Part shown: positions 437-27,571 of the stretch, in pieces | Position numbering within the stretch: position 1 is the first letter of the stretch | Layout: the number at the start of each line of letters is the position of its first letter | Source: Nitrososphaera viennensis EN76 | GTDB lineage: Archaea > Thermoproteota > Nitrososphaeria > Nitrososphaerales > Nitrososphaeraceae | Direction of reading: 5' to 3' | Assembly (NCBI RefSeq): GCF_000698785.1 | Contig: NZ_CP007536.1 | Span: 188,107-220,106 of the forward strand | Length of the DNA stretch: 32,000 bases | Translations under genes and position numbers: made by a program | The notes under the pieces: model-generated | The model's database searches: none | What the model was told of the DNA's origin: nothing | What the model saw: the letters and a program-made list of their open reading frames with translations, nothing else

Positions 437-1180
437 GTGATAACGTCCAACGAGGAAGAATTTATCTTGAACGTTTTGATATGGTCTCTACTAGTACCTG
501 CCCCCGAATTTCTTTTCCCATTCCCTACCGCGGAAGAACGAGTTCCAAAACCAATGCTGCGCCAAGATTTACAAATTCGAAGAATTAATGTCGAATATTC
601 ATTCTTACTCTTATTACTTGTCATTTTTTATTTCTGCAGATGGAAATTGACGTGTGTGCCAACAAACAAGAAGCATCTCTGCTCCAGAGATCTCGTGGTA
701 GTAATAATAATTTCGATAGCCACGGAATTATCTCTAGTGTTAGCGCCACTTGTTGTTGTAAGCGGCACTTTGAAACCGGCTGCGGCGTTCAGGCCGCAAT
801 CTGACGAGCTGGATCCCGGCTGCAATGATGATGCCGGCAGGCATTGGGAAGCTGGAGATAGAGTTGCAAGTGTATTCTATCAGGGATTTGTAGTGGTGTT
901 TTTATGCGAATCGTCCTCCTGGAGTGAAGAGGATAGGTATGACAAAGTAGTTTCTGTGCCAACAGTTGGCCCCCATAAGCATTCATGCTCCGCTCGTACT
1001 GATAATTTTGAAGGTGGCGGATCCGTAACAAAGACGTATGATGCAGAAGATAAAGTAGCCATGCAAAAAGAATCAAAAGATGGTGGCCTGCTGATCCAGA
1101 TATACCAATGTAAATACAAGCACGATGTGACCAACTGGGAGTTACAAGAGACGCTTCCGGCAGCTTCAGTCAGTACCTAG
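437..1180 (+). CDS. uncertain ORF, no recognisable family
   Basis: This is the longest ORF (247 aa) in the low-GC left edge, but its composition is odd (Cys/Trp-rich, no clear domain). The opposite strand carries four shorter ORFs in differing frames. The coding assignment is not secure. Confidence 0.15.
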   Translation: MITSNEEEFILNVLIWSLLVPAPEFLFPFPTAEERVPKPMLRQDLQIRRINVEYSFLLLLLVIFYFCRWKLTCVPTNKKHLCSRDLVVVIIISIATELSLVLAPLVVVSGTLKPAAAFRPQSDELDPGCNDDAGRHWEAGDRVASVFYQGFVVVFLCESSSWSEEDRYDKVVSVPTVGPHKHSCSARTDNFEGGGSVTKTYDAEDKVAMQKESKDGGLLIQIYQCKYKHDVTNWELQETLPAASVST

Positions 1181-1524
1181 AACCCTGCCTTTTTCATCTT
1201 GGAGCCGCAGTTTGGGCACGACACCTTGTTGTGCTTGGTGCCGCAGCTGATGCAGTAATAGTTGATACTGCTGCTACCTTCGCCATCCTTCTGGCCAAAG
1301 GGGTTTCCAAACAGCGAGCCCTGCCGGCCGCCGACCTGCTTCATAAAGCGGTACCTGCGATAGTACGCAAGGCCAAAGATGATTGGCAGCAGCACCATGA
1401 GCGAGTACGGAAAGTCGATGAACATGGTGATCACGATGCTTATTGCAAAGTAGATTCCAAGCCAGAGGATCTGCTGGTACAGGAACCGCTTTGCGCCTGC
1501 GTCCATCTGTGTGTACATATCCAC
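1177..1524 (-). CDS. small membrane protein with C-terminal zinc ribbon
   Basis: 115 aa with two hydrophobic helices (ILWLGIYFAISIVITMFI, LMVLLPIIFGLAYY). These are followed by a CxxC-x9-CxxC motif (CISCGTKHNKVSCPNCG). The gene is co-directional with, and 5 nt downstream of, the 1530..1709 gene. Confidence 0.6.
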   Translation of the reverse strand: MDMYTQMDAGAKRFLYQQILWLGIYFAISIVITMFIDFPYSLMVLLPIIFGLAYYRRYRFMKQVGGRQGSLFGNPFGQKDGEGSSSINYYCISCGTKHNKVSCPNCGSKMKKAGF

Positions 1525-1529
1525 ACGTG

Positions 1530-1709
1530 TTACATATATGTAAGCCGGGCAGCCCCTCCTTGACCTTCTTCTTCAGGCGCAAGGTGGCACATGACGTGGC
1601 CGAGGAGCTTTTCGTGCATGTGCGCGTCCTCGTCTGACAGGAACACCGTGCTGCAGCGCTCGCAGTAAAACAGCCTGTCCTGAAGCAGCGTTCCGGAACC
1701 TTGTTCCAT
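1530..1709 (-). CDS. small C2H2-like zinc-finger protein
   Basis: Track ORF 1530..1790 trimmed to the internal ATG (complement of 1707-1709): MEQGSGTLLQDRLFYCERCSTVFLSDEDAHMHEKLLGH. This shows a CxxC ... H-x-H ... H pattern. A TTTATA element lies about 30 nt upstream on the coding strand, consistent with a leaderless transcript. An alternative GTG start at 1790 would overlap the dinB-fusion stop (GTGA). Confidence 0.5.
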   Translation of the reverse strand: MEQGSGTLLQDRLFYCERCSTVFLSDEDAHMHEKLLGHVMCHLAPEEEGQGGAARLTYM

Positions 1710-1786
1710 AATTATGATACTGCGTCGCAGGATTGTAGCTATAAACGCTGTGGGTTGACATTGTAGACGCGCCGCGGAAAACGCGT

Positions 1787-3625
1787 TCACCCTCCCTGTC
1801 CTGCAAAAAAGTCAAGGAGCGTCCGCTGCGCCTCCTGCCTCCCGGGGTGGCTCAGGTTGGTGACGCGCAGGCCGACCTTTCGGACCGGCGCGTCAAGGTC
1901 AAACCTGTCGACCAGCTGCGGAATTGCCGCAAGGATGCTCTCGCGCCTCTGCTGCGGACCCTGGTACGACATCTCTCTCGTCTCGATGGAAAAGTCGGCC
2001 CTGACTATCTTTGCGCCCACCGTGCGAAACAGGTAGCCATGCCCTGCCACCCTGGCGTACAGCTCGTCAGAAAGGGCGGTCAGTTCTGCAAGGACCTCCT
2101 TTCTGCCCTTTGCATGTACTTCAAGGCTGTGCTCCGTGCTTATCGAGACGTGGTCCTCCCTTGGAACGACGGGGTCGCTGTCTGCGCCTGTTGCCACCTG
2201 CCACATCCACAGGCCGTTTCTGCTGCCAAAGCGCGACGTCAGCTTTTGCACGTCGCATGCCGCAAGCTGGCCTATGGTTGCGATGCCTATCTTTTTCAGC
2301 TCCTGCTGGGTCTTGGGGCCGATGCCTGAGATCCTGCCTACCTCGAGAGGCGCAAGGAAATCCTGCAGCCTGTCAGGATAGGCCACGGTGATGTCGTCAG
2401 GCTTTTTGAAATCAGACGCTATCTTGGCCGCCGACTTGGAAGGCGCCACTCCTATCGAGACTGAAAGGCCGCACCTCTCCCTTATCGCCCTCTTGATCGA
2501 CGACGCGTACTCGTAGGGGCTTGCGTCGCCGGCAGCGGCCCTTGCCGTGCAGTCCAGGAACGCCTCGTCTATGCTTGCCTGCTCTATCACGTCTGCAAAC
2601 CCTGAAAGGACTTCCATCACCTTCTCGGACACTTGCTTGTAGTACGCAATGTCGACTGGCCGGAGGTCCATATCGGGGCACAGCGCCAGCGCCCTTGCAA
2701 GCGGCATGGCCGACCTGACGCCAAACCTGCGCGCCTCGTACGAGCAGGACGATACCACGCCGCGCGTTATCTTGCCGGCAGGCTGGTCAGTCATTATCAC
2801 GGCGTGCGGCCTGCCCTTGAGGGCCGGCTCGCGCAGCTCCTCGCAGGAAGGGTAAAAGGCGTTGAGGTCGACGCAGAGGATCATCCTGCTGCCTGGGGAC
2901 CACCTTGGCGCAGGCACGGGCAGGGCAGGGGCAGGCATGGGGCCGGCGTACTTGCGCTCTGGCAGGCCAAGGTGCGTGAGCGCGGCGTTTGCGCCGCCCG
3001 GGCTGTCTGCGATTATTATCGACATGTCAACCTGCCCATCCTGCCCCGCTTCTTTGAGGGCCATTTCAAACTCGGCCTTCCAGTTGCCGGCGTTGCCTGA
3101 AAGCCTGAGAAAAATGAAATCCGACGTGATGGCGACAGCAGCTTCTTGTACGTTCCTTCCACTCCTCCAGTACATGGCCGCGCCGTGCCTCCTCAGTACG
3201 TTGTACGTGGTGTCTTGAAACCATGAGGGGTGGGCAAAGTCGAGGATTGCCGAGTAGCCGTGGTAGGTGGAGGTGGCAAGCACTCTGTCAAGCCAGCGCC
3301 GCCCGTCCTGAAGTGTGAGGCCCTGCGGCGTCCTTATCACCACCGCAAGCGTCTTTTCCTCTATCGGCCTGAAAGCTTCAAGCAGGTTTCCAAGCTCGAC
3401 GCTATCCTCTTCTGCTGCTGCCTGCTCTGGTATCCTGACGACAAAGCGAAAGCCCTCTGGCGTCTCGTGCGCCCACCTCCAGAACGAGTGCTCGTAGGTG
3501 GCCGGCACGCCCACCTCGACGACGTCAAACACCCGGGAATAGTGGGAAAGGTACTCCCTTGGCGCAAGCGCCTGCGGGTAAAAGTTGCCAAACCTCCACC
3601 CTGCGCACCCGACGAAATGCTTCAA
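1787..3625 (-). CDS. dinB: DUF72 (YecE-like) domain fused in frame to Y-family DNA polymerase IV (DinB/Dpo4)
   Basis: 612-aa uninterrupted ORF. The N-terminal ~220 aa carry DUF72 hallmarks (GCAGWRFGNFYP, YLSHYSRVFDVVEV, TPEGFRFVVRIP). A Pro-rich linker follows (AGPMPAPALPVPAPRWSPG). From residue 248 there is a complete DinB: MILCVDLNAFYPSCEEL, RPHAVIM, CSYEARRFGVRSAMP, SIDEAFLD, ASDFKKPDD, GIGPKT. Confidence 0.85.
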   Translation of the reverse strand: MKHFVGCAGWRFGNFYPQALAPREYLSHYSRVFDVVEVGVPATYEHSFWRWAHETPEGFRFVVRIPEQAAAEEDSVELGNLLEAFRPIEEKTLAVVIRTPQGLTLQDGRRWLDRVLATSTYHGYSAILDFAHPSWFQDTTYNVLRRHGAAMYWRSGRNVQEAAVAITSDFIFLRLSGNAGNWKAEFEMALKEAGQDGQVDMSIIIADSPGGANAALTHLGLPERKYAGPMPAPALPVPAPRWSPGSRMILCVDLNAFYPSCEELREPALKGRPHAVIMTDQPAGKITRGVVSSCSYEARRFGVRSAMPLARALALCPDMDLRPVDIAYYKQVSEKVMEVLSGFADVIEQASIDEAFLDCTARAAAGDASPYEYASSIKRAIRERCGLSVSIGVAPSKSAAKIASDFKKPDDITVAYPDRLQDFLAPLEVGRISGIGPKTQQELKKIGIATIGQLAACDVQKLTSRFGSRNGLWMWQVATGADSDPVVPREDHVSISTEHSLEVHAKGRKEVLAELTALSDELYARVAGHGYLFRTVGAKIVRADFSIETREMSYQGPQQRRESILAAIPQLVDRFDLDAPVRKVGLRVTNLSHPGRQEAQRTLLDFFAGQGG

Positions 3626-3693
3626 GTGCAGAGAAGCTTGCTCCGGCCCTTATAACGTGGGAGACACTCTCGGGAGAGGGGGAGAGATGCATC

Positions 3694-3846
3694 TCAGGCC
3701 GCGCCCAGCCCTGTCCTCTCTGCATACTCGATTGCAGGGTGGCAAGAATAGCAGTAGCTGCACCGGATGCACGAGTATGCTGTGCGCTTGCCGCACCACT
3801 TGCATTCGCTATACCTTGGCTTTAACGGTGAGAGGTACTCGTGCAT
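3694..3846 (-). CDS. small Cys-rich zinc-finger protein
   Basis: Track ORF 3694..3894 trimmed to the internal ATG (complement of 3844-3846): MHEYLSPLKPRYSECKWCGKRTAYSCIRCSYCYSCHPAIEYAE. It has interleaved CxxC/CxxC/CxxCH pairs typical of treble-clef or HIT-like fingers. It is co-directional with the dinB fusion and lies upstream of it. Confidence 0.45.
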   Translation of the reverse strand: MHEYLSPLKPRYSECKWCGKRTAYSCIRCSYCYSCHPAIEYAERTGLGAA

Positions 3847-3934
3847 GTATACATTAGATGATTGTCGATTCTGATAAATGACCTTTTCCCTCACGCAGGT
3901 TCAAATACCTGCCAGTGGCAACCACTGCTATTCT

Positions 3935-15364: not shown

Positions 15365-16306
15365 ATGGCGGCAGCAGGCACAAGAAAGGACAAGAAGAAC
15401 AAGCGCGCGCCCCCGACAAGGACGAGTGACTTTGGGGTGTCCCGGCGGGAAAGCCACGACTCGTCGCAGTTCTACTCGCGCCGACTATATTACTCCGGCG
15501 ACGGCGACGATGACAACGGCAGAGGCGCCGGCATGCCGGAAAGCAACAGCGTGCCTGCACAAGCGCTTGATAGGATATTCTGCAAAAGCAGCGAGAAGAT
15601 GGACGAGCTGCCTGACAGAAGCGTCCACCTTGCCGTCACGTCGCCCCCATACAACGTGGGAAAAGAGTACGACGGCGACCTGACGATGGAGCAGTACCGC
15701 CAGCTCTTGAAAAGCGTGTTTAGCGAGCTTTACCGCGTGCTTGCAGACGGCGGGAGGGCGTGCATCAACGTGGCAAACCTTGGCCGCAAGCCGTACATAC
15801 CACTCCACAGCTTTATCATCCAGGACATGCTTGCGTGCGGGTTTCTGATGCGCGGCGAGGTGATATGGGACAAAGGCTCCAGCGCCGGCGCCTCCACTGC
15901 GTGGGGCAGCTGGCAGTCCGCGTCAAACCCCACGCTTCGCGACGTGCACGAATACGTGCTGGTATTTTCCAAGGGATCGTTTTCAAGGAGGCCAACAGGC
16001 AAAAACACGATCTCCAAGGAAGAGTTCCTGCAGTACACGAAAAGCGTGTGGGAGTTCCAGGCCGAGTCCGCAAGGAAGGTGGGGCACCCTGCGCCCTTTC
16101 CCGTTGAATTGCCATACAGGTGCATCCAGCTGTACACGTTTGCCGGCGATGTTGTCCTTGACCCGTTCTGCGGCATCGGCTCATCCTGCATAGCCGCGCT
16201 GAAGGCAGGCCGGCACTTTGTAGGATATGATACAAGCAAAGAATACGTGAAGGCCGCGCAGGCAAGGCTACAAACATTCATGCAAAAAGGAAATATTGCA
16301 TTCTAG
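15365..16306 (+). CDS. beta-class DNA methyltransferase (N4-cytosine/N6-adenine family, SPPY type)
   Basis: Motif IV (VHLAVTSPPYNVGKEY) precedes motif I (VLDPFCGIGSSCIAALKAGRHFVGYD). This is the beta-class circular permutation. The protein also contains HPAPFPVELP and a basic, disordered N-terminus with FGVSRRESHDSSQFY. Confidence 0.9.
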   Translation: MAAAGTRKDKKNKRAPPTRTSDFGVSRRESHDSSQFYSRRLYYSGDGDDDNGRGAGMPESNSVPAQALDRIFCKSSEKMDELPDRSVHLAVTSPPYNVGKEYDGDLTMEQYRQLLKSVFSELYRVLADGGRACINVANLGRKPYIPLHSFIIQDMLACGFLMRGEVIWDKGSSAGASTAWGSWQSASNPTLRDVHEYVLVFSKGSFSRRPTGKNTISKEEFLQYTKSVWEFQAESARKVGHPAPFPVELPYRCIQLYTFAGDVVLDPFCGIGSSCIAALKAGRHFVGYDTSKEYVKAAQARLQTFMQKGNIAF

Positions 16307-17009: not shown

Positions 17010-17573
17010 TTACGGTATCGACCTGCTGTACAGTTTTCCTTCCAGCGCCAGCTTGTACATCTCTGCCACGTACGGGTTCTTGGCCGGAGTCTCCTGCTGC
17101 AGCTCCACCATCCTTGCGTACACCCTCACCACGTACGCCAAGGCGCCCATGAATGCCACTACGACACCCATGTTGAACATCCAGTGGTTCGGTACGGAAA
17201 AGATCTCCTCGACCATCCAGAAGTGCCACATCTCGTTGACCCCGACAGTGAACATCGTGGCAAGGTAGCCGATGATGGTTATCTTCAAGCCCGTGTTCAT
17301 CGAGTTGCCGGGGCCCCTGAGGACTGGAACCCTTCTGTCGTACATGGCCACCATGCCCCAGCCGACTGGCAGCGCGATAAAGTGGCTGTACAGCCACCAG
17401 TGGGCCGGCGTGAAGGCCGAGTCGCGTATGGACGTCTGGTGCAGCGAGCCGTCGACAAAGTTGTCTATCTCCACGGATAGTGCTATCTGGGCCAGTACTA
17501 TGACCATGATGTAGATCTTTTTCAGCCGTTGTACTTCGACTTCTTTTGGTATCAGCAAAGGTATCTGTGCCAT
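17010..17573 (-). CDS. amoC: ammonia monooxygenase subunit C (archaeal AmoC)
   Basis: 187 aa, MAQIPLLIPKEVEVQRLKKIY...VDNFVDGSLHQTSIRDSAFTPAHWWLYSHF...VPVLRGPGNSMNTGLK...GVNEMWHFWMVEEIFSVPNHWMFNMGVVVAFMGALAYVVRVYAR...NPYVAEMYKLALEGKLYSRSIP. Length and conserved blocks match archaeal AmoC as I recall it. Confidence 0.9.
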   Translation of the reverse strand: MAQIPLLIPKEVEVQRLKKIYIMVIVLAQIALSVEIDNFVDGSLHQTSIRDSAFTPAHWWLYSHFIALPVGWGMVAMYDRRVPVLRGPGNSMNTGLKITIIGYLATMFTVGVNEMWHFWMVEEIFSVPNHWMFNMGVVVAFMGALAYVVRVYARMVELQQETPAKNPYVAEMYKLALEGKLYSRSIP

Positions 17574-20723: not shown

Positions 20724-21332
20724 CTATTTTACCTGCAAGCTAGCTGGCCTTGCCCTTTTTCTTGAGAGAAAAGCGCTTGACGGGTCGATAAAGCGCCACT
20801 GCACGTCTGTGGCCCTGCTTATCCCTATTCTTGCAGTGGATATTATCGTCTGCCTTGCGGGGCCGTCCTCGATCCTGATTTCCGAATCCGGACTGGTCAT
20901 GTCTGCGCCGTTCTGCCTGCGGGTTATGTTCATGGCCTGCGCCAGCCTGCCCGGGCCGGTTGTGAGCAAATAAAAGTTGTCAAGCCCGCGCAGACTCTTC
21001 ATCGCCTCGATGCCGTCCACCGGCTCGATGCTCCGGATTAGCACCGCGCCTGCCGGCGCGCCGTTTCTTGCAGAGACGTTTACGCAGTGGTGGTTGCCGT
21101 ACGTGAAATACACGTACGCAATCCCTGCCTCTCCATACATCACCCTGTTCCTCTCGGTCATGCCGCGGCAGGCGTGGCTTGCGGGGTCGTCTGCGTGGCC
21201 GTACGCCTCCGTCTCTACTATGACGCCTGACAGCCTGTGGCTGTTCAGGCTGCGCACCAGCACCTTGCCTATCAGGTCCCTTGCGACTTCTGCGGTGGGC
21301 CTCTGGTAGAACGACCTTGCAAGGGTCATCAT
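20724..21332 (-). CDS. mpg: DNA-3-methyladenine glycosylase (MPG/AAG family)
   Basis: Contains FYQRPTAEVARDLIGKVLV, GVIVETEAYGHADDPASHACRGMTERNRVMYGEAGIAYVYFTYGNHHCVNV, AVLIRSIEP and TTGPGRLAQAMNI. Confidence 0.9.
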   Translation of the reverse strand: MMTLARSFYQRPTAEVARDLIGKVLVRSLNSHRLSGVIVETEAYGHADDPASHACRGMTERNRVMYGEAGIAYVYFTYGNHHCVNVSARNGAPAGAVLIRSIEPVDGIEAMKSLRGLDNFYLLTTGPGRLAQAMNITRRQNGADMTSPDSEIRIEDGPARQTIISTARIGISRATDVQWRFIDPSSAFLSRKRARPASLQVK

Positions 21333-21335
21333 ACT

Positions 21336-21947
21336 CTACATGAAATCCTCCAGCGACTCGCCTCTCCCTTCCGCCCCGTCGATTTCCTTTGCCAGCTTTT
21401 TCAGGTCTGCTTCAAGGAGCGAAAGCATGCTCCTGTTGTATATCGCGGCGGCTGGGTGTATTGTCAGAAAGTACTTTTGGCCAGCTTTTTCGATTATCTT
21501 GCCCCTGTTTGCGGTTATAGACCCGCCGCCGAGGATGGACGAGTATGCGGTCCGGCCAAGTATGCAGATGATCCGGGGCCTGATGAGGGCGATCTGCCGC
21601 TCGAGGTAGGGCGTGCACGCCTGCACCTCGTCGTCTTCAGGCACGCGGTTGTTCGGCGGCCTGCACTTTACCACATTTGTGATAAAAACCTGCGAGCGCG
21701 AGATGCCTGCCTTGGCAAGCATCTCGTCAAGAATCTTTCCTGCGGCGCCCACAAACGGCCTGCCTTTCTCGTCCTCGCTCCTCCCTGGAGCCTCGCCCAC
21801 GAACATCACCTTTGCGGAAAGCTGGCCCTCGCCGGGCACCGCGTTCTTTCTCGTCCTTGCCAGCTTGCATTTCGGGCAGCCCGTGACCTCGCCTGCTACT
21901 TTTTCAAGCGAATCCACGACGGGCAGCCTTGATGACGACGATGACAT
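21336..21947 (-). CDS. udg: uracil-DNA glycosylase, family 4 (Fe-S type)
   Basis: Contains GCPKCKLARTRKNAVPGEG, VMFVGEAPGRSEDEKGRPFVGAAGKILD, VFITNVVKCRPPNNR and HPAAAIY, with a Cys pattern consistent with a 4Fe-4S cluster. The stop lies 3 nt before the MPG start. Confidence 0.9.
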   Translation of the reverse strand: MSSSSSRLPVVDSLEKVAGEVTGCPKCKLARTRKNAVPGEGQLSAKVMFVGEAPGRSEDEKGRPFVGAAGKILDEMLAKAGISRSQVFITNVVKCRPPNNRVPEDDEVQACTPYLERQIALIRPRIICILGRTAYSSILGGGSITANRGKIIEKAGQKYFLTIHPAAAIYNRSMLSLLEADLKKLAKEIDGAEGRGESLEDFM

Positions 21948-23246: not shown

Positions 23247-23384
23247 AAAATTGAAAAACTACGATAAATAGCGAATAAATTAGCTTTTTGATAATTGCTT
23301 GCATTTCAAGATAATTCAAAATACTTGCAAGCGTTGGAAAATTTAACTAAATGCTTTTATTCAAACCTCATTGCTCTGACCTCC

Positions 23385-24893
23385 ATGAATGCAGACAGTA
23401 AAGCAAAGTCTTTACTTAGTTTCAGGCTCGGCCTGGCAAGTCTGGCTGCAGTTGTAATGGCGCTGGTGGCGGTCGGTTATACCGGCAGCGCCTTTGCATA
23501 CGCTCCAGATGACCCTGCCGTGCCATATCACTGCTGGCAGACAAACGAGGACGGCACATTTGTGATCCAGACGGGCGAAGACGGCAGCCAGAACCTGGTG
23601 CCCTGTGAGATAAACACGGGTGACCACGCGTGGATGCTGACATCTTCGGCGCTCGTGCTCATGATGACTCCTGCGGGCCTCGCAATCTTTTACGGCGGCC
23701 TTGCAAGGCAAAAGAACGCGGTAAACACGCTGCACATGGTGTTCATCACCACAGGCGTGATCGGCATACAGTTTGTTCTCTGGGGATACAGCCTTGCATT
23801 CGGCCCTGACGCAGGCGGCTATGGCTTTATCGGGACGCTTGACTGGGCAGGCCTGCAGAACGTGCTCCATGACGTTCCATCAAGCCAGTACGCGATCACC
23901 ATCCCGCACACGACATTCATGGTATTCCAGATGATGTTCGCCATCATCACGCCAGCGCTTATCGTGGCGTCAGTGGCAGAGCGCATGAAGTTCAGCGCGT
24001 TCATCATCTTCATAGTGATATGGGCAACATTCGTCTACGACTTTGCCGCCCACTGGACGTGGCAGATAGCGGTACCGGACAACTATGGCATGAACCCTGG
24101 CTACTGTGGCTTTGGCTGGACGGGATGCCTTGGCTCGCTTGACTTTGCAGGCGGAACTGTCATCCACATCACGTCAGGCTGGTCCGGCCTTGTCATTGCC
24201 CTCATGCTCGGACGCAGGCTGGGCTATGGCAAGGTCCCGATGGAGCCGCACAACATCTCACTTGTGGTGCTCGGTGCAGCCCTGCTCTGGGTAGGCTGGT
24301 TCGGCTTTAACGCAGGTTCTGCTGGCGCGGCAGCAACAAACGCCGGCAGCGCGTTCGTAGCAACGCAGATTGCAACAGGCATGGCCGCAGTTACATGGGC
24401 GCTCATATCGTGGGCCCACACTGGAAGGCCGTCAACAATCGGCGCGGCATCCGGTGCAGTGGCAGGCCTCGTGGCCATCACGCCGGCATCCGGCTTTGTG
24501 TCGCCCATGTCTGCGATAATCATAGGCATAATTGCCTCGATTGTGTGCTACGCGGCAGTCGCGTTCAAGAACAAGCGCAAGTGGGACGATGCCCTTGACA
24601 CATGGGGCGTGCACGGAGTCGGCGGTCTTGCAGGCGCAATCCTGACTGGCATCTTTGCGGAAAAGAGGTTCACATCGTGGGGAGACAATGGCCTTGCATT
24701 TGGCAACCCTGCCCAGCTCTACGAAAACGCGGTCGGCGCGTTTGCCGCACTCGCATGGGCTATGGGCCTGACGGCTGTCATAATCAAGATCATGGACGTG
24801 GTCTGGCCCGGTGGAATCCGCGTGACGCCAAAGGAAGAGGAAGTCGGCCTCGACCTTGCGCAGCACGGCGAGAGGGCGTACGTGACAGAATAG
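23385..24893 (+). CDS. amt: ammonium transporter (Amt family)
   Basis: The start at ATG 23385 gives a signal peptide (LASLAAVVMALVAVGYTGSAFA). Amt blocks follow: DHAWMLTSSALVLMMTPAGLAIFYGGL, DFAGGTVIHITSGWSGL, LLWVGWFGFNAGS and DTWGVHGVGGLAGAILTGIFA. The track ORF begins earlier, at a TTG at 23295. Confidence 0.9.
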   Translation: MNADSKAKSLLSFRLGLASLAAVVMALVAVGYTGSAFAYAPDDPAVPYHCWQTNEDGTFVIQTGEDGSQNLVPCEINTGDHAWMLTSSALVLMMTPAGLAIFYGGLARQKNAVNTLHMVFITTGVIGIQFVLWGYSLAFGPDAGGYGFIGTLDWAGLQNVLHDVPSSQYAITIPHTTFMVFQMMFAIITPALIVASVAERMKFSAFIIFIVIWATFVYDFAAHWTWQIAVPDNYGMNPGYCGFGWTGCLGSLDFAGGTVIHITSGWSGLVIALMLGRRLGYGKVPMEPHNISLVVLGAALLWVGWFGFNAGSAGAAATNAGSAFVATQIATGMAAVTWALISWAHTGRPSTIGAASGAVAGLVAITPASGFVSPMSAIIIGIIASIVCYAAVAFKNKRKWDDALDTWGVHGVGGLAGAILTGIFAEKRFTSWGDNGLAFGNPAQLYENAVGAFAALAWAMGLTAVIIKIMDVVWPGGIRVTPKEEEVGLDLAQHGERAYVTE

Positions 24894-26698: not shown

Positions 26699-27571
26699 CT
26701 ACCACTTTCTGCCCGCGTCCTGCCTCATGTGGTAGTAGAGGAACTGCTGTGCATAGCCCGCGTACCTGCCAAAGTACCTGCGCGCGGCTTCCGATACTTC
26801 GATATATTGGCGTCCGGTCAGCTTCTTTTCGCTCATTTTCTTACCGGCAAGCCAGCCGTAGTGGCTTGCAAGTGCGCGCGCTATCCAGACGTCTATTGGA
26901 AAGGCGTCCAGCTTGTCCAGCGAAAAGAGCAGTATGCAGTCTGCTATTTTGGGGCCGATTCCGTGCACCTTTAGCAGTTCGGCCCTGGCCTCGCCGTAAT
27001 CTGCTTTTTTAAGGTAATCAAGATCAAGCGAGCCGTCTGCCATCGCCCCTGCCGCCGCTTTTATCGCCTTTGCCCTGTAGCCCAGGCCGCAGGCGCGAAG
27101 CTCGCTTTCAGAAGTTTTGTGAAGCGCCTGCACCGAAGGAAAAGTGTGAAACTCTTTGCCGTCGGCGACTACCTTCTGGCCGTACTTTCTTGACAGCGCG
27201 CCAAGCATCCTCCGTATCATGGGTATGTTGGTGTTGCTTGCGCACGCAAACGAGATGATGCACTGCACAGGGTCCTGCCTCATGAGCCTGAGCCCCGGAT
27301 AAGATGCAACCAGTTTTTGCACGAGCGGGTCCCTGGCAATCTCTGCAAATATAGCGTCGGTGTCGTCGTCAAGCCGGAACATGCTGCGCTCCACGTCTTT
27401 TTCTTCCGGAAACGACTCGAAGACGAGCACGCCATCCTGGTTTGAAAACTTTACCACCTTGTCTGCGTGTATGCCGTACCATGCCTGCCCCGACTTTTCC
27501 CAGAGAAAGACCTGGCCGCTGTTGACGCTTGTCTCCGGGTCAAAACGCGTAAGGAGCGGCGGCTGCCTCAA
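26699..27571 (-). CDS. ogg: 8-oxoguanine DNA glycosylase/AP lyase (Ogg1-type, OGG_N + HhH-GPD)
   Basis: Contains GQVFLWEK...WYG (OGG_N), CIISFACASNTNI, LRACGLGYRAKAI and the HhH-GPD core LLKVHGIGPKIADCILLFSLDKLDAFPIDVWI. The catalytic Lys and Asp positions are present. Confidence 0.85.
   Translation of the reverse strand: MRQPPLLTRFDPETSVNSGQVFLWEKSGQAWYGIHADKVVKFSNQDGVLVFESFPEEKDVERSMFRLDDDTDAIFAEIARDPLVQKLVASYPGLRLMRQDPVQCIISFACASNTNIPMIRRMLGALSRKYGQKVVADGKEFHTFPSVQALHKTSESELRACGLGYRAKAIKAAAGAMADGSLDLDYLKKADYGEARAELLKVHGIGPKIADCILLFSLDKLDAFPIDVWIARALASHYGWLAGKKMSEKKLTGRQYIEVSEAARRYFGRYAGYAQQFLYYHMRQDAGRKW

What the first reader, a model, noticed from the sequence alone, without database searches (positions are those of the whole stretch)
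1787..3625. In-frame fusion of a DUF72 domain to a complete Y-family (DinB/Dpo4) translesion polymerase
One uninterrupted 612-codon ORF joins a DUF72/YecE-like module to a full-length DinB. The DUF72 part shows GCAGWRFGNFYP, YSRVFDVVEV and EGFRFVVRIP. A Pro-rich linker (PMPAPALPVPAPRWSPG) connects it to the DinB part, which begins MILCVDLNAFYPSCEEL at residue 248. Y-family polymerases are normally stand-alone proteins of about 350 aa. DUF72 has no experimentally established function, although its TIM-barrel fold has been compared with endonuclease IV-like DNA-binding enzymes. A covalent fusion is therefore a Rosetta-stone style link between DUF72 and lesion bypass or AP-site processing. An internal ATG (complement of 2882-2884) could also allow expression of a polymerase-only isoform.
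Basis: partly seen in the sequence, partly recalled or inferred. Interest (0 to 1): 0.7.

Follow-up and report, generated by a model that had tools for sequence, protein, structure and literature searches.

The report
Translesion polymerase fused to DUF72 barrel
A soil ammonia-oxidising archaeon encodes a lesion-bypass DNA polymerase with an extra barrel-shaped domain, copied from a widespread protein family of unknown function, tethered to its front end; the fusion is real and conserved across that archaeal family, but the extra domain has lost its family's hallmark residues, so it hints at a DNA-damage role for that family without proving one.

Summary
Window 1787-3625(-) is one 612-codon ORF made of a DUF72 TIM barrel (residues 1-222), a Pro-rich linker, a complete DinB/Dpo4-type polymerase and a C-terminal PIP-like box. 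[quoted passage not shown] It is not an assembly artefact. More than 110 protein clusters and about 65 species-level genomes, all Nitrososphaeraceae, carry the same architecture. The N-domain is under purifying selection (dN/dS about 0.2). A conserved TATA-like box sits 24 nt upstream of the TTG start.

The Rosetta-stone reading is only partly supported. The fused barrel is a divergent paralogue, and at least one genome also keeps a canonical stand-alone DUF72. It has lost near-invariant family residues (His79, Arg140, the TFY and NNH motifs) and is less basic than canonical DUF72. It has been deleted or split off several times while the polymerase persisted. No specific link to endonuclease IV or UVDE was found. 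My best reading is an accessory, flexibly tethered module with remodelled chemistry on an otherwise ordinary PCNA-tethered translesion polymerase. No searchable paper analyses this fusion. Interest is moderate.

The parts
3650..3655 (-). TATA-like promoter box (TTATAA) 24 nt upstream of the TTG start. The spacing is that of an archaeal promoter driving a leaderless or near-leaderless mRNA.
   Evidence: Sequence read. The box (G/A)TTATA(A/T) is conserved 24-33 nt upstream of the aligned start codon in L001, L002, L004, L007, L008, L037 and others. Promoter function is inferred, not shown.
1787..3625 (-). Complete CDS of the fusion protein (612 aa plus TGA). This is N. viennensis NVIE_002150 / dbh1.
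   Evidence: The start codon is TTG here and in at least 8 orthologues, and ATG at the same aligned codon in L002 and L004.
2960..3625 (-). N-terminal DUF72-derived (beta/alpha)8 barrel, residues 1-222. All eight strands are present but the canonical polar pocket is remodelled.
   Evidence: Pfam DUF72. AF2 model with pLDDT 87.6 and pTM 0.85, with 8 strands and their helices. Best PDB fold match is 1vpq, E 3e-12, TM 0.71. Motif comparison. dN/dS 0.17-0.20.
2888..2959 (-). Pro-rich flexible linker, residues 223-246. It ends in the conserved Trp242, which belongs to the polymerase N-terminus.
   Evidence: Low pLDDT of 44-64. Linker length varies from 12 to 74 aa among orthologues. dN/dS is about 0.4. 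W242 is invariant in fused proteins, and the same motif is kept in the two unfused DinBs examined.
2411..2872 (-). Polymerase palm and fingers (IMS), residues 252-405. It contains D253, the steric-gate residue Y258 and the D353-E354 pair.
   Evidence: invariant columns; alignment to PDB 7yll. The roles of these residues come from established Dpo4/DinB knowledge.
2180..2377 (-). Helix-hairpin-helix thumb, residues 417-482.
   Evidence: IMS_HHH, IMS_HHH_1 and POLH-Rev1_HhH hits.
1835..2146 (-). Little-finger / PAD domain (IMS_C), residues 494-597.
1805..1828 (-). C-terminal PIP-like box QRTLLDFF (residues 600-607), a presumed PCNA-binding motif.
   Evidence: Q600 and D605 are invariant and T602 is at least 90% conserved. 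The pattern Qxx[LIMV]xx[FYW] occurs in the last 30 aa of 116 of 118 fused proteins. PCNA binding itself is inferred.

Best explanation
The gene encodes a functional Dpo4/DinB-type translesion DNA polymerase. It is probably clamped to PCNA through its C-terminal PIP-like box. On a flexible, length-variable linker it carries an accessory TIM-barrel domain. That domain arose in the Nitrososphaeraceae lineage by duplication of the resident DUF72 gene and fusion to the 5' end of a dinB gene.

After fusion the barrel kept its fold and a conserved C-terminal face rich in aromatic residues. It replaced the family's near-invariant polar and phosphate-binding residues and became less basic. It therefore most likely no longer performs the unknown canonical DUF72 reaction. 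I expect it acts in cis as a binding, targeting or regulatory module for the polymerase, for example by recognising a DNA structure, a lesion, a nucleotide or a partner protein. The module is useful but dispensable for polymerase function, because lineages repeatedly delete it or split it off.

Shown: the architecture, its conservation, purifying selection, the motif losses, the paralogy and the repeated losses. Inferred: polymerase activity, PCNA binding, non-canonical chemistry and the nature of the ligand.
For: The fusion is real and conserved. The promoter and start codon are conserved. The transcript is detected at about log2 RPKM 5 in N. viennensis.

The polymerase is intact. All Y-family domains are present, the catalytic D253 and D353-E354 are invariant, and the closest solved proteins are DinB, Dbh and Dpo4 at E down to 1e-55. 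A PIP-like box is present in 116 of 118 fused proteins.

The N-domain is a folded and constrained unit. The AF2 model has pTM 0.85 with 8 strands, and dN/dS is 0.17-0.20 against 0.08 for the polymerase.

The pocket is remodelled. In 111 canonical DUF72 proteins, E42 is 100% conserved, K72 95%, H79 94%, Q110 95%, E138 95%, R140 94% and R182 97%. In 118 fused domains, His79 and Arg140 are at 0%, the TFY motif is deleted, the NNH motif is absent and E42 is only 64% conserved. The Tm1631 sulfate site is described as a Tyr/His/Arg/Glu/Arg pattern. Median pI is 6.5 for fused domains against 8.8 for canonical ones.

The domain is a paralogue. Among the closest canonical hits is a Nitrososphaeraceae stand-alone DUF72, and one MAG carries both forms. 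No stand-alone family with the altered motifs was found apart from fragments and one split.

The domain is dispensable. Unfused L068 is 93% identical to the polymerase part of fused P0092. Unfused L070 is 71% identical to fused L019, keeps a relic of the linker, and is only 57% identical to unfused L074. L081 is split by an in-frame TAA in the linker. L060 has an internal deletion.

The tether is flexible. The linker has low pLDDT, and the full-length model has pTM of only 0.47.
Against: The catalytic residues of canonical DUF72 have never been determined experimentally, so 'loss of invariant residues' does not prove loss of catalysis. The fused clade keeps or gains conserved polar residues on the barrel's C-terminal face that could form a different active site: E37 (in most), R/K64, E/D129, H132, S134, Q137, D138, T167, D169 and R/H174. 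I could not map conservation onto the model or inspect domain contacts, because coordinates and PAE were not available. A lower pI argues against generic DNA binding but does not say what is bound. The unfused clade L071-L080 may be the separate paralogue dbh2 rather than a loss, and the NJ tree has no bootstrap support.
Confidence: 0.6

Rival explanations
1. The DUF72 domain is an active damage-specific endonuclease or AP-processing enzyme, like endonuclease IV or UVDE. It nicks next to a lesion, and the covalently attached DinB then carries out the repair or bypass synthesis, giving a one-polypeptide incision-plus-synthesis machine.
For: DUF72 is a TIM barrel that has been compared computationally with endonuclease IV and called closely related to UVDE. 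DUF72 genes are enriched next to damage-inducible PolB2 translesion operons. After 1vpq, the fold neighbours are xylose-isomerase-like barrels, which by my own knowledge is the superfamily that also holds endonuclease IV and UVDE. The barrel's C-terminal face stays the most conserved part of the domain and still carries Glu, Asp, His and Arg residues. The domain is under purifying selection.
Against: Family-invariant His79, Arg140, the TFY Tyr and the NNH motif are absent from all fused domains. The 100%-invariant Glu42 is replaced by Ser, Ala or Gln in about a quarter of them. The domain is not basic, with a median pI of 6.5. There is no endonuclease IV or UVDE match by Pfam, by profile against PDB sequences at E up to 10, or in the Foldseek top 50. 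The domain is repeatedly lost. No nuclease activity has been shown for any DUF72 protein.
Confidence: 0.22
2. The N-domain is an enzyme or binding protein for a small, non-DNA substrate such as a sugar or nucleotide metabolite. The fusion serves only to co-express it with DinB and has no mechanistic coupling.
For: After 1vpq, the best fold matches are sugar epimerases and other small-molecule TIM barrels. The domain is acidic to neutral. The long, variable linker and the lack of confident domain packing fit two independent activities.
Against: The altered DUF72 type is found only fused to DinB or freshly split from it, never as an independent family. Independent literature links DUF72 to translesion operons. 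A fusion kept across a whole family with dN/dS of 0.2 argues for a function tied to the polymerase.
Confidence: 0.1
3. The N-domain is an evolutionary relic with no remaining function, carried along because it supplies the promoter and the start codon.
For: Loss of canonical motifs. A faster rate than the polymerase domain. Repeated deletions.
Against: dN/dS is 0.17-0.20, far below 1. About 45 positions are at least 90% conserved across proteins as low as 38% identical. The barrel is confidently predicted as complete. The domain is retained in about 65 species-level genomes.
Confidence: 0.04
4. An assembly or annotation artefact, a frameshift or a missed stop joins two separate genes.
For: None was found. 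Raw reads could not be examined.
Against: The ORF is uninterrupted in a complete genome and in more than 110 independent clusters from NCBI, JGI, ENA and Logan. Both halves and the junction are selected as coding sequence. The exceptions are individually explainable: L064 has two frameshifts in a MAG, and L081 has an in-frame nonsense codon.
Confidence: 0.01

Closest known systems
Archaeal and bacterial DinB / Dpo4 / Dbh (DNA polymerase IV, Y-family)
   Same: Residues 247-612 have the full palm-fingers, HhH-thumb and little-finger layout, the catalytic Asp and Asp-Glu, an aromatic steric-gate residue and a C-terminal clamp-binding-type motif. The best solved relatives are 7yll, mycobacterial DinB1, E. 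coli DinB, Dbh and Dpo4.
   Different: The protein carries a 246-residue N-terminal TIM barrel plus linker, whereas known prokaryotic members are stand-alone proteins of about 350 aa. The second motif-I Asp (Dpo4 D9) is Asn255 here and in most Nitrososphaeraceae homologues.
DUF72 / PF01904 (T. maritima TM1631 = 1VPQ, E. faecalis EF0366 = 1VPY/1ZTV, E. coli YecE)
   Same: It has the same (beta/alpha)8 fold. 1vpq is the top hit by both sequence and structure. The shared motifs are GxxGW, FYP, W-x7-F-x-F, SW[FY] and [YF]-x-R.
   Different: It lacks near-invariant His79, Arg140 and the TFY and NNH motifs. Only profile positions 1-164 of 217 match. It is less basic. It is never free-standing except after a secondary split.
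DUF72 genes next to PolB2 translesion operons (PMC11791011)
   Same: This is an independent association between DUF72 and a damage-tolerance polymerase in archaea and bacteria.
   Different: There the link is gene neighbourhood with a B-family polymerase and presumably a canonical DUF72. Here it is a covalent fusion of a divergent DUF72 to a Y-family polymerase. No repair operon surrounds the gene in this window.
Repair polymerases with a built-in nuclease domain: bacterial PolX with its PHP domain, and LigD (from my own knowledge, not tested here)
   Same: They share the design principle of a repair polymerase covalently joined to a second DNA-end or lesion-processing module.
   Different: The folds and families are unrelated. 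In those enzymes the nuclease activity is demonstrated. Here the extra domain's activity is unknown and its canonical motifs are degraded.
Eukaryotic Y-family polymerases with accessory domains: Rev1 BRCT, Pol kappa N-clasp, Pol eta UBZ/PIP (from my own knowledge)
   Same: A Y-family catalytic core is extended by non-catalytic targeting or regulatory modules on flexible linkers.
   Different: The accessory domain here is a TIM barrel derived from an enzyme-like family, and it occurs in an archaeon.

Membership tests
Y-family DNA polymerase (DinB / Dpo4 / Pol IV) | IMS palm-fingers domain above the curated threshold | tested here: met
   PF00817 scores 148 bits against a cutoff of 23.2, at residues 252-405. 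NCBIfam PRK02406 scores 273.4 against a cutoff of 256.
Y-family DNA polymerase (DinB / Dpo4 / Pol IV) | Catalytic carboxylates (motif-I Asp and the S-I-D-E Asp-Glu) and an aromatic steric-gate residue | tested here: met
   D253, D353 and E354 are invariant in 15 diverse fused proteins. The aromatic at position 258 is Tyr here and Phe in two of the 15. These residues align with VDMDAFF and SIDEAYLD of PDB 7yll. Residue roles come from established Dpo4/DinB knowledge. The second motif-I Asp is Asn255.
Y-family DNA polymerase (DinB / Dpo4 / Pol IV) | HhH thumb and little-finger (PAD) domain | tested here: met
   IMS_HHH at 417-448 and IMS_C at 494-597.
Y-family DNA polymerase (DinB / Dpo4 / Pol IV) | C-terminal sliding-clamp (PCNA) interaction motif | tested here: met
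   QRTLLDFF at residues 600-607. The motif is present in 116 of 118 fused homologues. Binding itself is not testable here.
Y-family DNA polymerase (DinB / Dpo4 / Pol IV) | Single-module protein of about 350 aa in prokaryotes | tested here: not met
   The protein is 612 aa with a 246-aa N-terminal extension. This is a difference in architecture. It is not grounds to exclude the protein from the family.
Y-family DNA polymerase (DinB / Dpo4 / Pol IV) | Template-directed lesion-bypass synthesis | not testable with these tools
   Requires biochemistry.
DUF72 (PF01904) | Pfam gathering score | tested here: met
   82.9 bits against a cutoff of 25.3, but only profile positions 1-164 of 217 are matched.
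DUF72 (PF01904) | (beta/alpha)8 barrel closest to solved DUF72 structures | tested here: met
   AF2 model with pTM 0.85 and eight strands. Foldseek top hit is 1vpq, E 3.2e-12, TM 0.71. The profile of N-domains hits only 1vpq (8e-25) and 1vpy/1ztv (2e-9).
DUF72 (PF01904) | Near-invariant polar residues of the barrel's C-terminal face: E42, TFY, K72, T78-H79, Q110, E138-x-R140, R182 (numbering of the canonical HMM built), plus the C-terminal NNH motif seen in the printed canonical sequences | tested here: not met
   His79 and Arg140 are at 0% in 118 fused domains. TFY is deleted and NNH is absent. E42 is 64% conserved, K72 becomes Arg in 62%, and Q110 is 61% conserved. In the query the corresponding residues are E37, R64, A71, R98, D129, A131 and R174.
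DUF72 (PF01904) | Free-standing protein of 240-300 aa | tested here: not met
   The altered type is found only fused, apart from fragments and one in-frame split.
Endonuclease IV / UVDE (xylose-isomerase-like TIM-barrel DNA nucleases) | Sequence-profile membership (Pfam AP_endonuc_2 or UvdE; similarity to solved endonuclease IV or UVDE chains) | tested here: not met
   No such Pfam family at E up to 0.01. No endonuclease IV or UVDE chain at E up to 10 with a 20-sequence profile.
Endonuclease IV / UVDE (xylose-isomerase-like TIM-barrel DNA nucleases) | Closest structural neighbours are endonuclease IV or UVDE | tested here: inconclusive
Endonuclease IV / UVDE (xylose-isomerase-like TIM-barrel DNA nucleases) | Multi-metal site of His, Asp and Glu ligands, and phosphodiester incision at lesions | not testable with these tools
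   No residue-level superposition or coordinates were available. Activity needs biochemistry.

The most novel reading that the evidence does not exclude
The remodelled DUF72 barrel is a lesion-recognition or lesion-processing module that works in cis with the polymerase. It would sense or incise a specific class of DNA damage and hand it directly to the tethered DinB. That would be the first prokaryotic Y-family polymerase with a built-in damage-recognition or incision domain. Together with the DUF72-PolB2 neighbourhood link, it would assign the whole DUF72/YecE family to DNA-damage tolerance.
Probability: 0.2. Interest if true: 0.8.

Novelty: new variant of a known kind. Interest (0 to 1): 0.5.

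Why it matters
DUF72 (E. coli YecE, T. maritima TM1631) is a widespread family. Crystal structures have existed since 2004, but no function has been demonstrated. So far only computation (endonuclease IV and UVDE comparisons) and gene neighbourhood (PolB2 operons) connect it to DNA damage.

A covalent fusion to a translesion polymerase, conserved across the main family of soil ammonia-oxidising archaea, is a second and independent genomic hint in the same direction. It also offers a tractable test system, because N. viennensis is cultivated and encodes a second annotated Y-family polymerase, dbh2.

The analysis also warns against transferring function naively. The fused copy is a paralogue that has shed the family's hallmark residues, so it may report on ancestry (what DUF72 binds) more than on catalysis. 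For Y-family polymerase biology, it would be an archaeal parallel to the accessory-domain strategy of eukaryotic Rev1, Pol eta and Pol kappa.

Tried and rejected
1. Assembly frameshift or artefact. Rejected on conservation and dN/dS.

2. Polymerase-only isoform from the internal ATG at 2882-2884. M248 is not conserved, with Val in most orthologues, and the upstream 60 nt are GC-rich with no TATA-like element that I could read. Not supported.

3. Specific kinship with endonuclease IV or UVDE. Not seen by Pfam, by profile against PDB sequences, or by Foldseek.

4. Repair operon context. The immediate neighbours are a cyclophilin, a TetR regulator, DM13, RNase H and small zinc-binding ORFs. Three base-excision glycosylases lie 17-24 kb away, too far to argue for linkage.

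5. Other fusion partners, or independent DUF72-DinB fusions outside Nitrososphaeraceae. None appeared among the top 150 representatives or the 80 loci kept. The genome scan used clade-specific peptide patterns, so distant independent fusions could have been missed.

7. The scripting machine was lost. Bootstrap support for the polymerase tree and a pairwise identity table could not be computed. Key pairs were checked with BLASTP instead.

8. Literature. Five full-text searches aimed at the fusion or at DUF72/YecE and one on translesion synthesis in N. viennensis found no paper that discusses the fusion. Only a product name in a supplementary table records it.

9. Proteomic evidence for dbh1. 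It is not present in the stored part of the PMC12542715 table, where only dbh2 is listed. This is inconclusive because the file was truncated when stored.
Full report
**Observation**

Window 1787-3625 on the minus strand is a single 612-codon ORF. It starts at a TTG, the only possible start after an in-frame TAA nine codons upstream.

Pfam places four domains:
- DUF72 (PF01904) on residues 16-178, at E 4.6e-23 and 82.9 bits against a cutoff of 25.3. Only profile positions 1-164 of 217 are covered.
- IMS on residues 252-405 (E 2.3e-43).
- IMS_HHH on residues 417-448.
- IMS_C on residues 494-597.

NCBIfam's DNA polymerase IV equivalog PRK02406 is passed, at 273 bits against a cutoff of 256.

The protein is 100% identical to "DNA polymerase IV [Nitrososphaera viennensis]" on a 2.53-Mb contig. 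[quoted passage not shown] There it is flanked by a peptidyl-prolyl isomerase and a TetR regulator, exactly as in this window. The same table lists a second Y-family gene, dbh2 (NVIE_003510).

**Real gene, not an artefact**

I could not inspect reads, but the artefact hypothesis fails on comparative grounds.
- Nearly all of the best 120 90%-identity clusters, at 46-100% identity, have the same DUF72+IMS architecture at about 580-640 aa. They come from NCBI, JGI, ENA and Logan.
- A scan of one genome per GTDB species returned 80 loci, all from Nitrososphaeraceae-type archaea (Nitrososphaera, Ca. Nitrosopolaris, Ca. Nitrosocosmicus). About 65 of them hold an uninterrupted fused ORF.
- Nei-Gojobori dN/dS against the two closest orthologues is 0.17-0.20 for the N-domain, about 0.4 for the linker and 0.08 for the polymerase. 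Both halves are therefore selected as protein.
- The aligned start codon is TTG in at least nine orthologues and ATG in two. A (G/A)TTATA(A/T) box lies 24-33 nt upstream, at 3650-3655 in the window. This is the geometry of an archaeal promoter for a leaderless mRNA.
- The gene is transcribed at a low level in N. viennensis, at about log2 RPKM 5, and does not respond to copper limitation.

**Anatomy**

AlphaFold on a 54-sequence alignment gives the N-domain a confident, complete (beta/alpha)8 barrel, with pLDDT 87.6 and pTM 0.85. The strands lie at residues 2-7, 35-39, 60-65, 92-98, 126-129, 150-154, 170-175 and 201-206.

The full-length model has pTM of only 0.47 and a low-confidence linker. 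Linker length ranges from 12 to 74 residues among orthologues. The two modules therefore appear flexibly tethered rather than packed together.

The polymerase part is ordinary.
- D253, D353 and E354 are invariant, and position 258 carries an aromatic steric-gate residue, Tyr here and Phe in some orthologues.
- Its nearest solved relatives are DinB, Dbh and Dpo4, at E down to 1.4e-55.
- One oddity is Asn255 where most Y-family enzymes have a second motif-I Asp.
- The C-terminus carries QRTLLDFF, a canonical PIP-box pattern, which is present in 116 of 118 fused homologues.

**The N-domain is a divergent DUF72**

A search of 1.84 billion representatives with the N-domain found only 8 hits below 1e-30. 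Those are fused proteins or their fragments. Below them lie ordinary stand-alone DUF72 proteins at 27-34% identity. No other fusion partner appeared.

I built an HMM from 111 canonical proteins and aligned 118 fused N-domains to it.

| Position (HMM numbering) | Canonical (111) | Fused (118) |
|---|---|---|
| Glu42 | 100% | Glu 64%; Ser, Ala or Gln about 26% |
| Phe47 / Tyr48 (TFY) | 92% / 86% | mostly deleted |
| Lys72 | 95% | Arg 62%, Lys 31% |
| His79 | 94% | His 0% |
| Gln110 | 95% | Gln 61% |
| Glu138 | 95% | Glu 72%, Asp 19% |
| Arg140 | 94% | Arg 0% |
| Arg182 | 97% | Arg 73%, His 20% |

The C-terminal NNH..G motif is also missing from the fused domains, which explains the truncated Pfam match.

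Konc et al. describe the presumed active site of Tm1631 as a Tyr/His/Arg/Glu/Arg pattern around a bound sulfate in an electropositive groove. Three of those five residue types are gone from the fused clade. Its median pI is 6.5, against 8.8 for canonical DUF72.

The clade nevertheless has strong constraints of its own: G6, W10, F15-Y16-P17, W51, F59-R60-F61, E89-E90-K91, Y121-H122-G123-Y124-S125, F130, S134-W135-x-Q137-D138, Y141, W153, T167, D169, P209 and N213. Judged from the secondary-structure map, many of these sit at the C-terminal ends of the strands and in the following loops. A ligand-binding face therefore persists, but with different chemistry.

**Relation to endonuclease IV and UVDE**

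Foldseek against the PDB gives 1vpq (TM1631) as the clear best match, at E 3e-12 and TM 0.71. Next come sugar epimerases and MbnB at TM about 0.5. By my own knowledge these are xylose-isomerase-like barrels, the broad superfamily that also contains endonuclease IV and UVDE. No endonuclease IV or UVDE chain is in the top 50.

A 20-sequence profile of N-domains hits only 1vpq and 1vpy/1ztv among all PDB sequences, even at E up to 10. The nuclease comparison therefore rests on the literature and gains nothing specific from this protein.

**Evolution**

Among the closest canonical relatives of the fused domain is a Nitrososphaeraceae stand-alone DUF72 with intact motifs (P0132 cluster). MAG GCA_035297365.1 carries both such a gene (L082) and a fused gene (L055). 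The fused barrel is therefore a paralogue. It most simply arose by duplication of the resident DUF72, fusion to dinB and subsequent divergence. Some MAGs carry two or three fused copies.

Polymerase-only versions have arisen secondarily.
- L068 encodes an unfused DinB that is 93% identical to the polymerase part of fused P0092, in a different genomic context.
- L070 is 71% identical to fused L019 and still carries a relic of the end of the N-domain and linker. It is only 57% identical to another unfused DinB.
- L081 is split by an in-frame TAA in the linker. The identical 232-aa product was seen in a second, independent assembly.
- L060 retains only the first 56 residues of the barrel.

A large, abundant clade of 381-aa unfused DinBs also exists in Nitrososphaera-type genomes. 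It may correspond to the dbh2 paralogue. An unbootstrapped NJ tree scatters unfused forms among fused ones, but I could not obtain support values after the scripting machine failed.

**How it most likely works**

*Shown.* The conserved fusion, an intact polymerase, a folded and selected barrel with remodelled pocket residues, a flexible tether, a conserved PIP-like motif, and repeated loss of the barrel.

*Inferred.* The protein is a PCNA-tethered translesion polymerase. Its N-terminal barrel no longer performs the unknown canonical DUF72 reaction. Instead it acts in cis as a binding, targeting or regulatory module. It is advantageous but dispensable for the polymerase core. Confidence is about 0.6.

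I put this at about 0.2. It is kept alive by the persisting conserved acidic, His and Arg residues on the barrel face and by the literature links. It is weakened by the motif losses, the non-basic charge and the dispensability of the domain.

*Minor rivals.* An unrelated small-molecule enzyme that is merely co-expressed (about 0.1), a functionless relic (about 0.04, contradicted by dN/dS), and an artefact (about 0.01).

**Novelty**

The architecture is recorded in the N. viennensis annotation and visible in precomputed Pfam assignments. Five full-text searches aimed at the fusion or at DUF72/YecE, and one on translesion synthesis in N. viennensis, found no paper that discusses it. Reviews of ammonia-oxidiser genomes mention only "PolY".

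What is new here is the family-wide conservation, the paralogy with a retained canonical DUF72, the specific loss of hallmark residues, and the repeated loss or fission of the domain. I class it as a new variant of a known kind: a Y-family polymerase with an unprecedented TIM-barrel accessory domain. Interest is moderate. It is a second genomic pointer, after the PolB2 neighbourhoods, tying DUF72 to damage tolerance. It is an imperfect Rosetta stone, because the fused copy has diverged.

**Limits**

- There is no bootstrap support for the tree.
- The dbh2 sequence was not retrieved.
- The genome scan used clade-specific peptide patterns, so independent fusions in distant lineages cannot be excluded.
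- The catalytic residues of DUF72 are not experimentally known, so "remodelled" should not be read as "inactive".

Noticed in passing
window 20724-21332(-), 21336-21947(-), 26699-27571(-): Three base-excision-repair glycosylase genes lie within 7 kb of each other. They are a methylpurine-DNA glycosylase and a UDG-superfamily gene only 4 nt apart, plus an OGG_N/HhH-GPD 8-oxoguanine glycosylase. They lie 17-24 kb from the fusion gene, which is probably too far for a functional link.
   Followed up: partly
window 3694-3894(-), 1530-1790(-), 1177-1524(-): Small Cys-rich ORFs flank the fusion gene on the same strand and are syntenic across Nitrososphaera loci. Upstream is a 66-aa zinc-ribbon-like ORF. 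Downstream is an 86-aa ORF whose GTG overlaps the fusion gene's TGA (GTGA) and carries a C2H2-like CERC...HMHEKLLGH motif. After it comes a 115-aa ORF with a C-terminal double zinc-ribbon hint. None has a Pfam family above threshold. They could be co-transcribed partners.
   Followed up: partly
L081 4001-5866: A natural fission of the fusion. An in-frame TAA in the linker (…LLNLQ*RKYGHMQWVGKIIICVDLNAFFPSCEEL) yields a 232-aa barrel ORF and a 383-aa DinB ORF 16 nt apart. The identical 232-aa product occurs on a second, independent ENA contig.
   Followed up: yes
L068 3778-4911; L070 2530-3729: These are recently derived polymerase-only genes. L068 is 93% identical to the polymerase part of fused P0092 and sits behind an unrelated gene. 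L070 keeps a relic of the linker.
   Followed up: yes
L060 4650-5912; L064 6001-7919: L060 retains only residues 1-56 of the barrel, joined to the polymerase by an internal deletion. L064 has the full fusion interrupted by two +1 frameshifts, most likely sequencing or assembly error.
   Followed up: partly
L003+L010 (DATEUD01); L057+L062+L067 (CAWIYT01): Single MAGs carry two or three diverged fused copies, so the fusion gene has itself duplicated. Bin contamination was not excluded.
   Followed up: no
N. viennensis NVIE_003510 (outside the window): The genome has a second Y-family polymerase, dbh2, annotated without a DUF72 domain. It was detected at low intensity in a proteome table, whereas dbh1 was not seen in the stored, truncated part. 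Its sequence and its relation to the 381-aa unfused clade were not checked.
   Followed up: partly
window 2861-2863 (codon for Asn255): The second Asp of Y-family motif I (Dpo4 D9, by my own knowledge) is Asn here (DLNAFY) and in most fused and unfused Nitrososphaeraceae DinBs. A few retain Asp, for example P0087 with DVDSFY.
   Followed up: no
L074 7332-8027: A 231-aa ORF lies directly downstream of an unfused DinB. By eye its sequence looks like an endonuclease III / HhH-GPD glycosylase. It was not scanned against Pfam.
   Followed up: no
window 15365-16306(+), 17010-17573(-), 23295-24893(+): Other gene content in the window: an N6/N4 DNA methyltransferase, a short AmoC-like ORF (187 aa, matching only AmoC profile positions 96-242) and an Amt ammonium transporter.
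   Followed up: no
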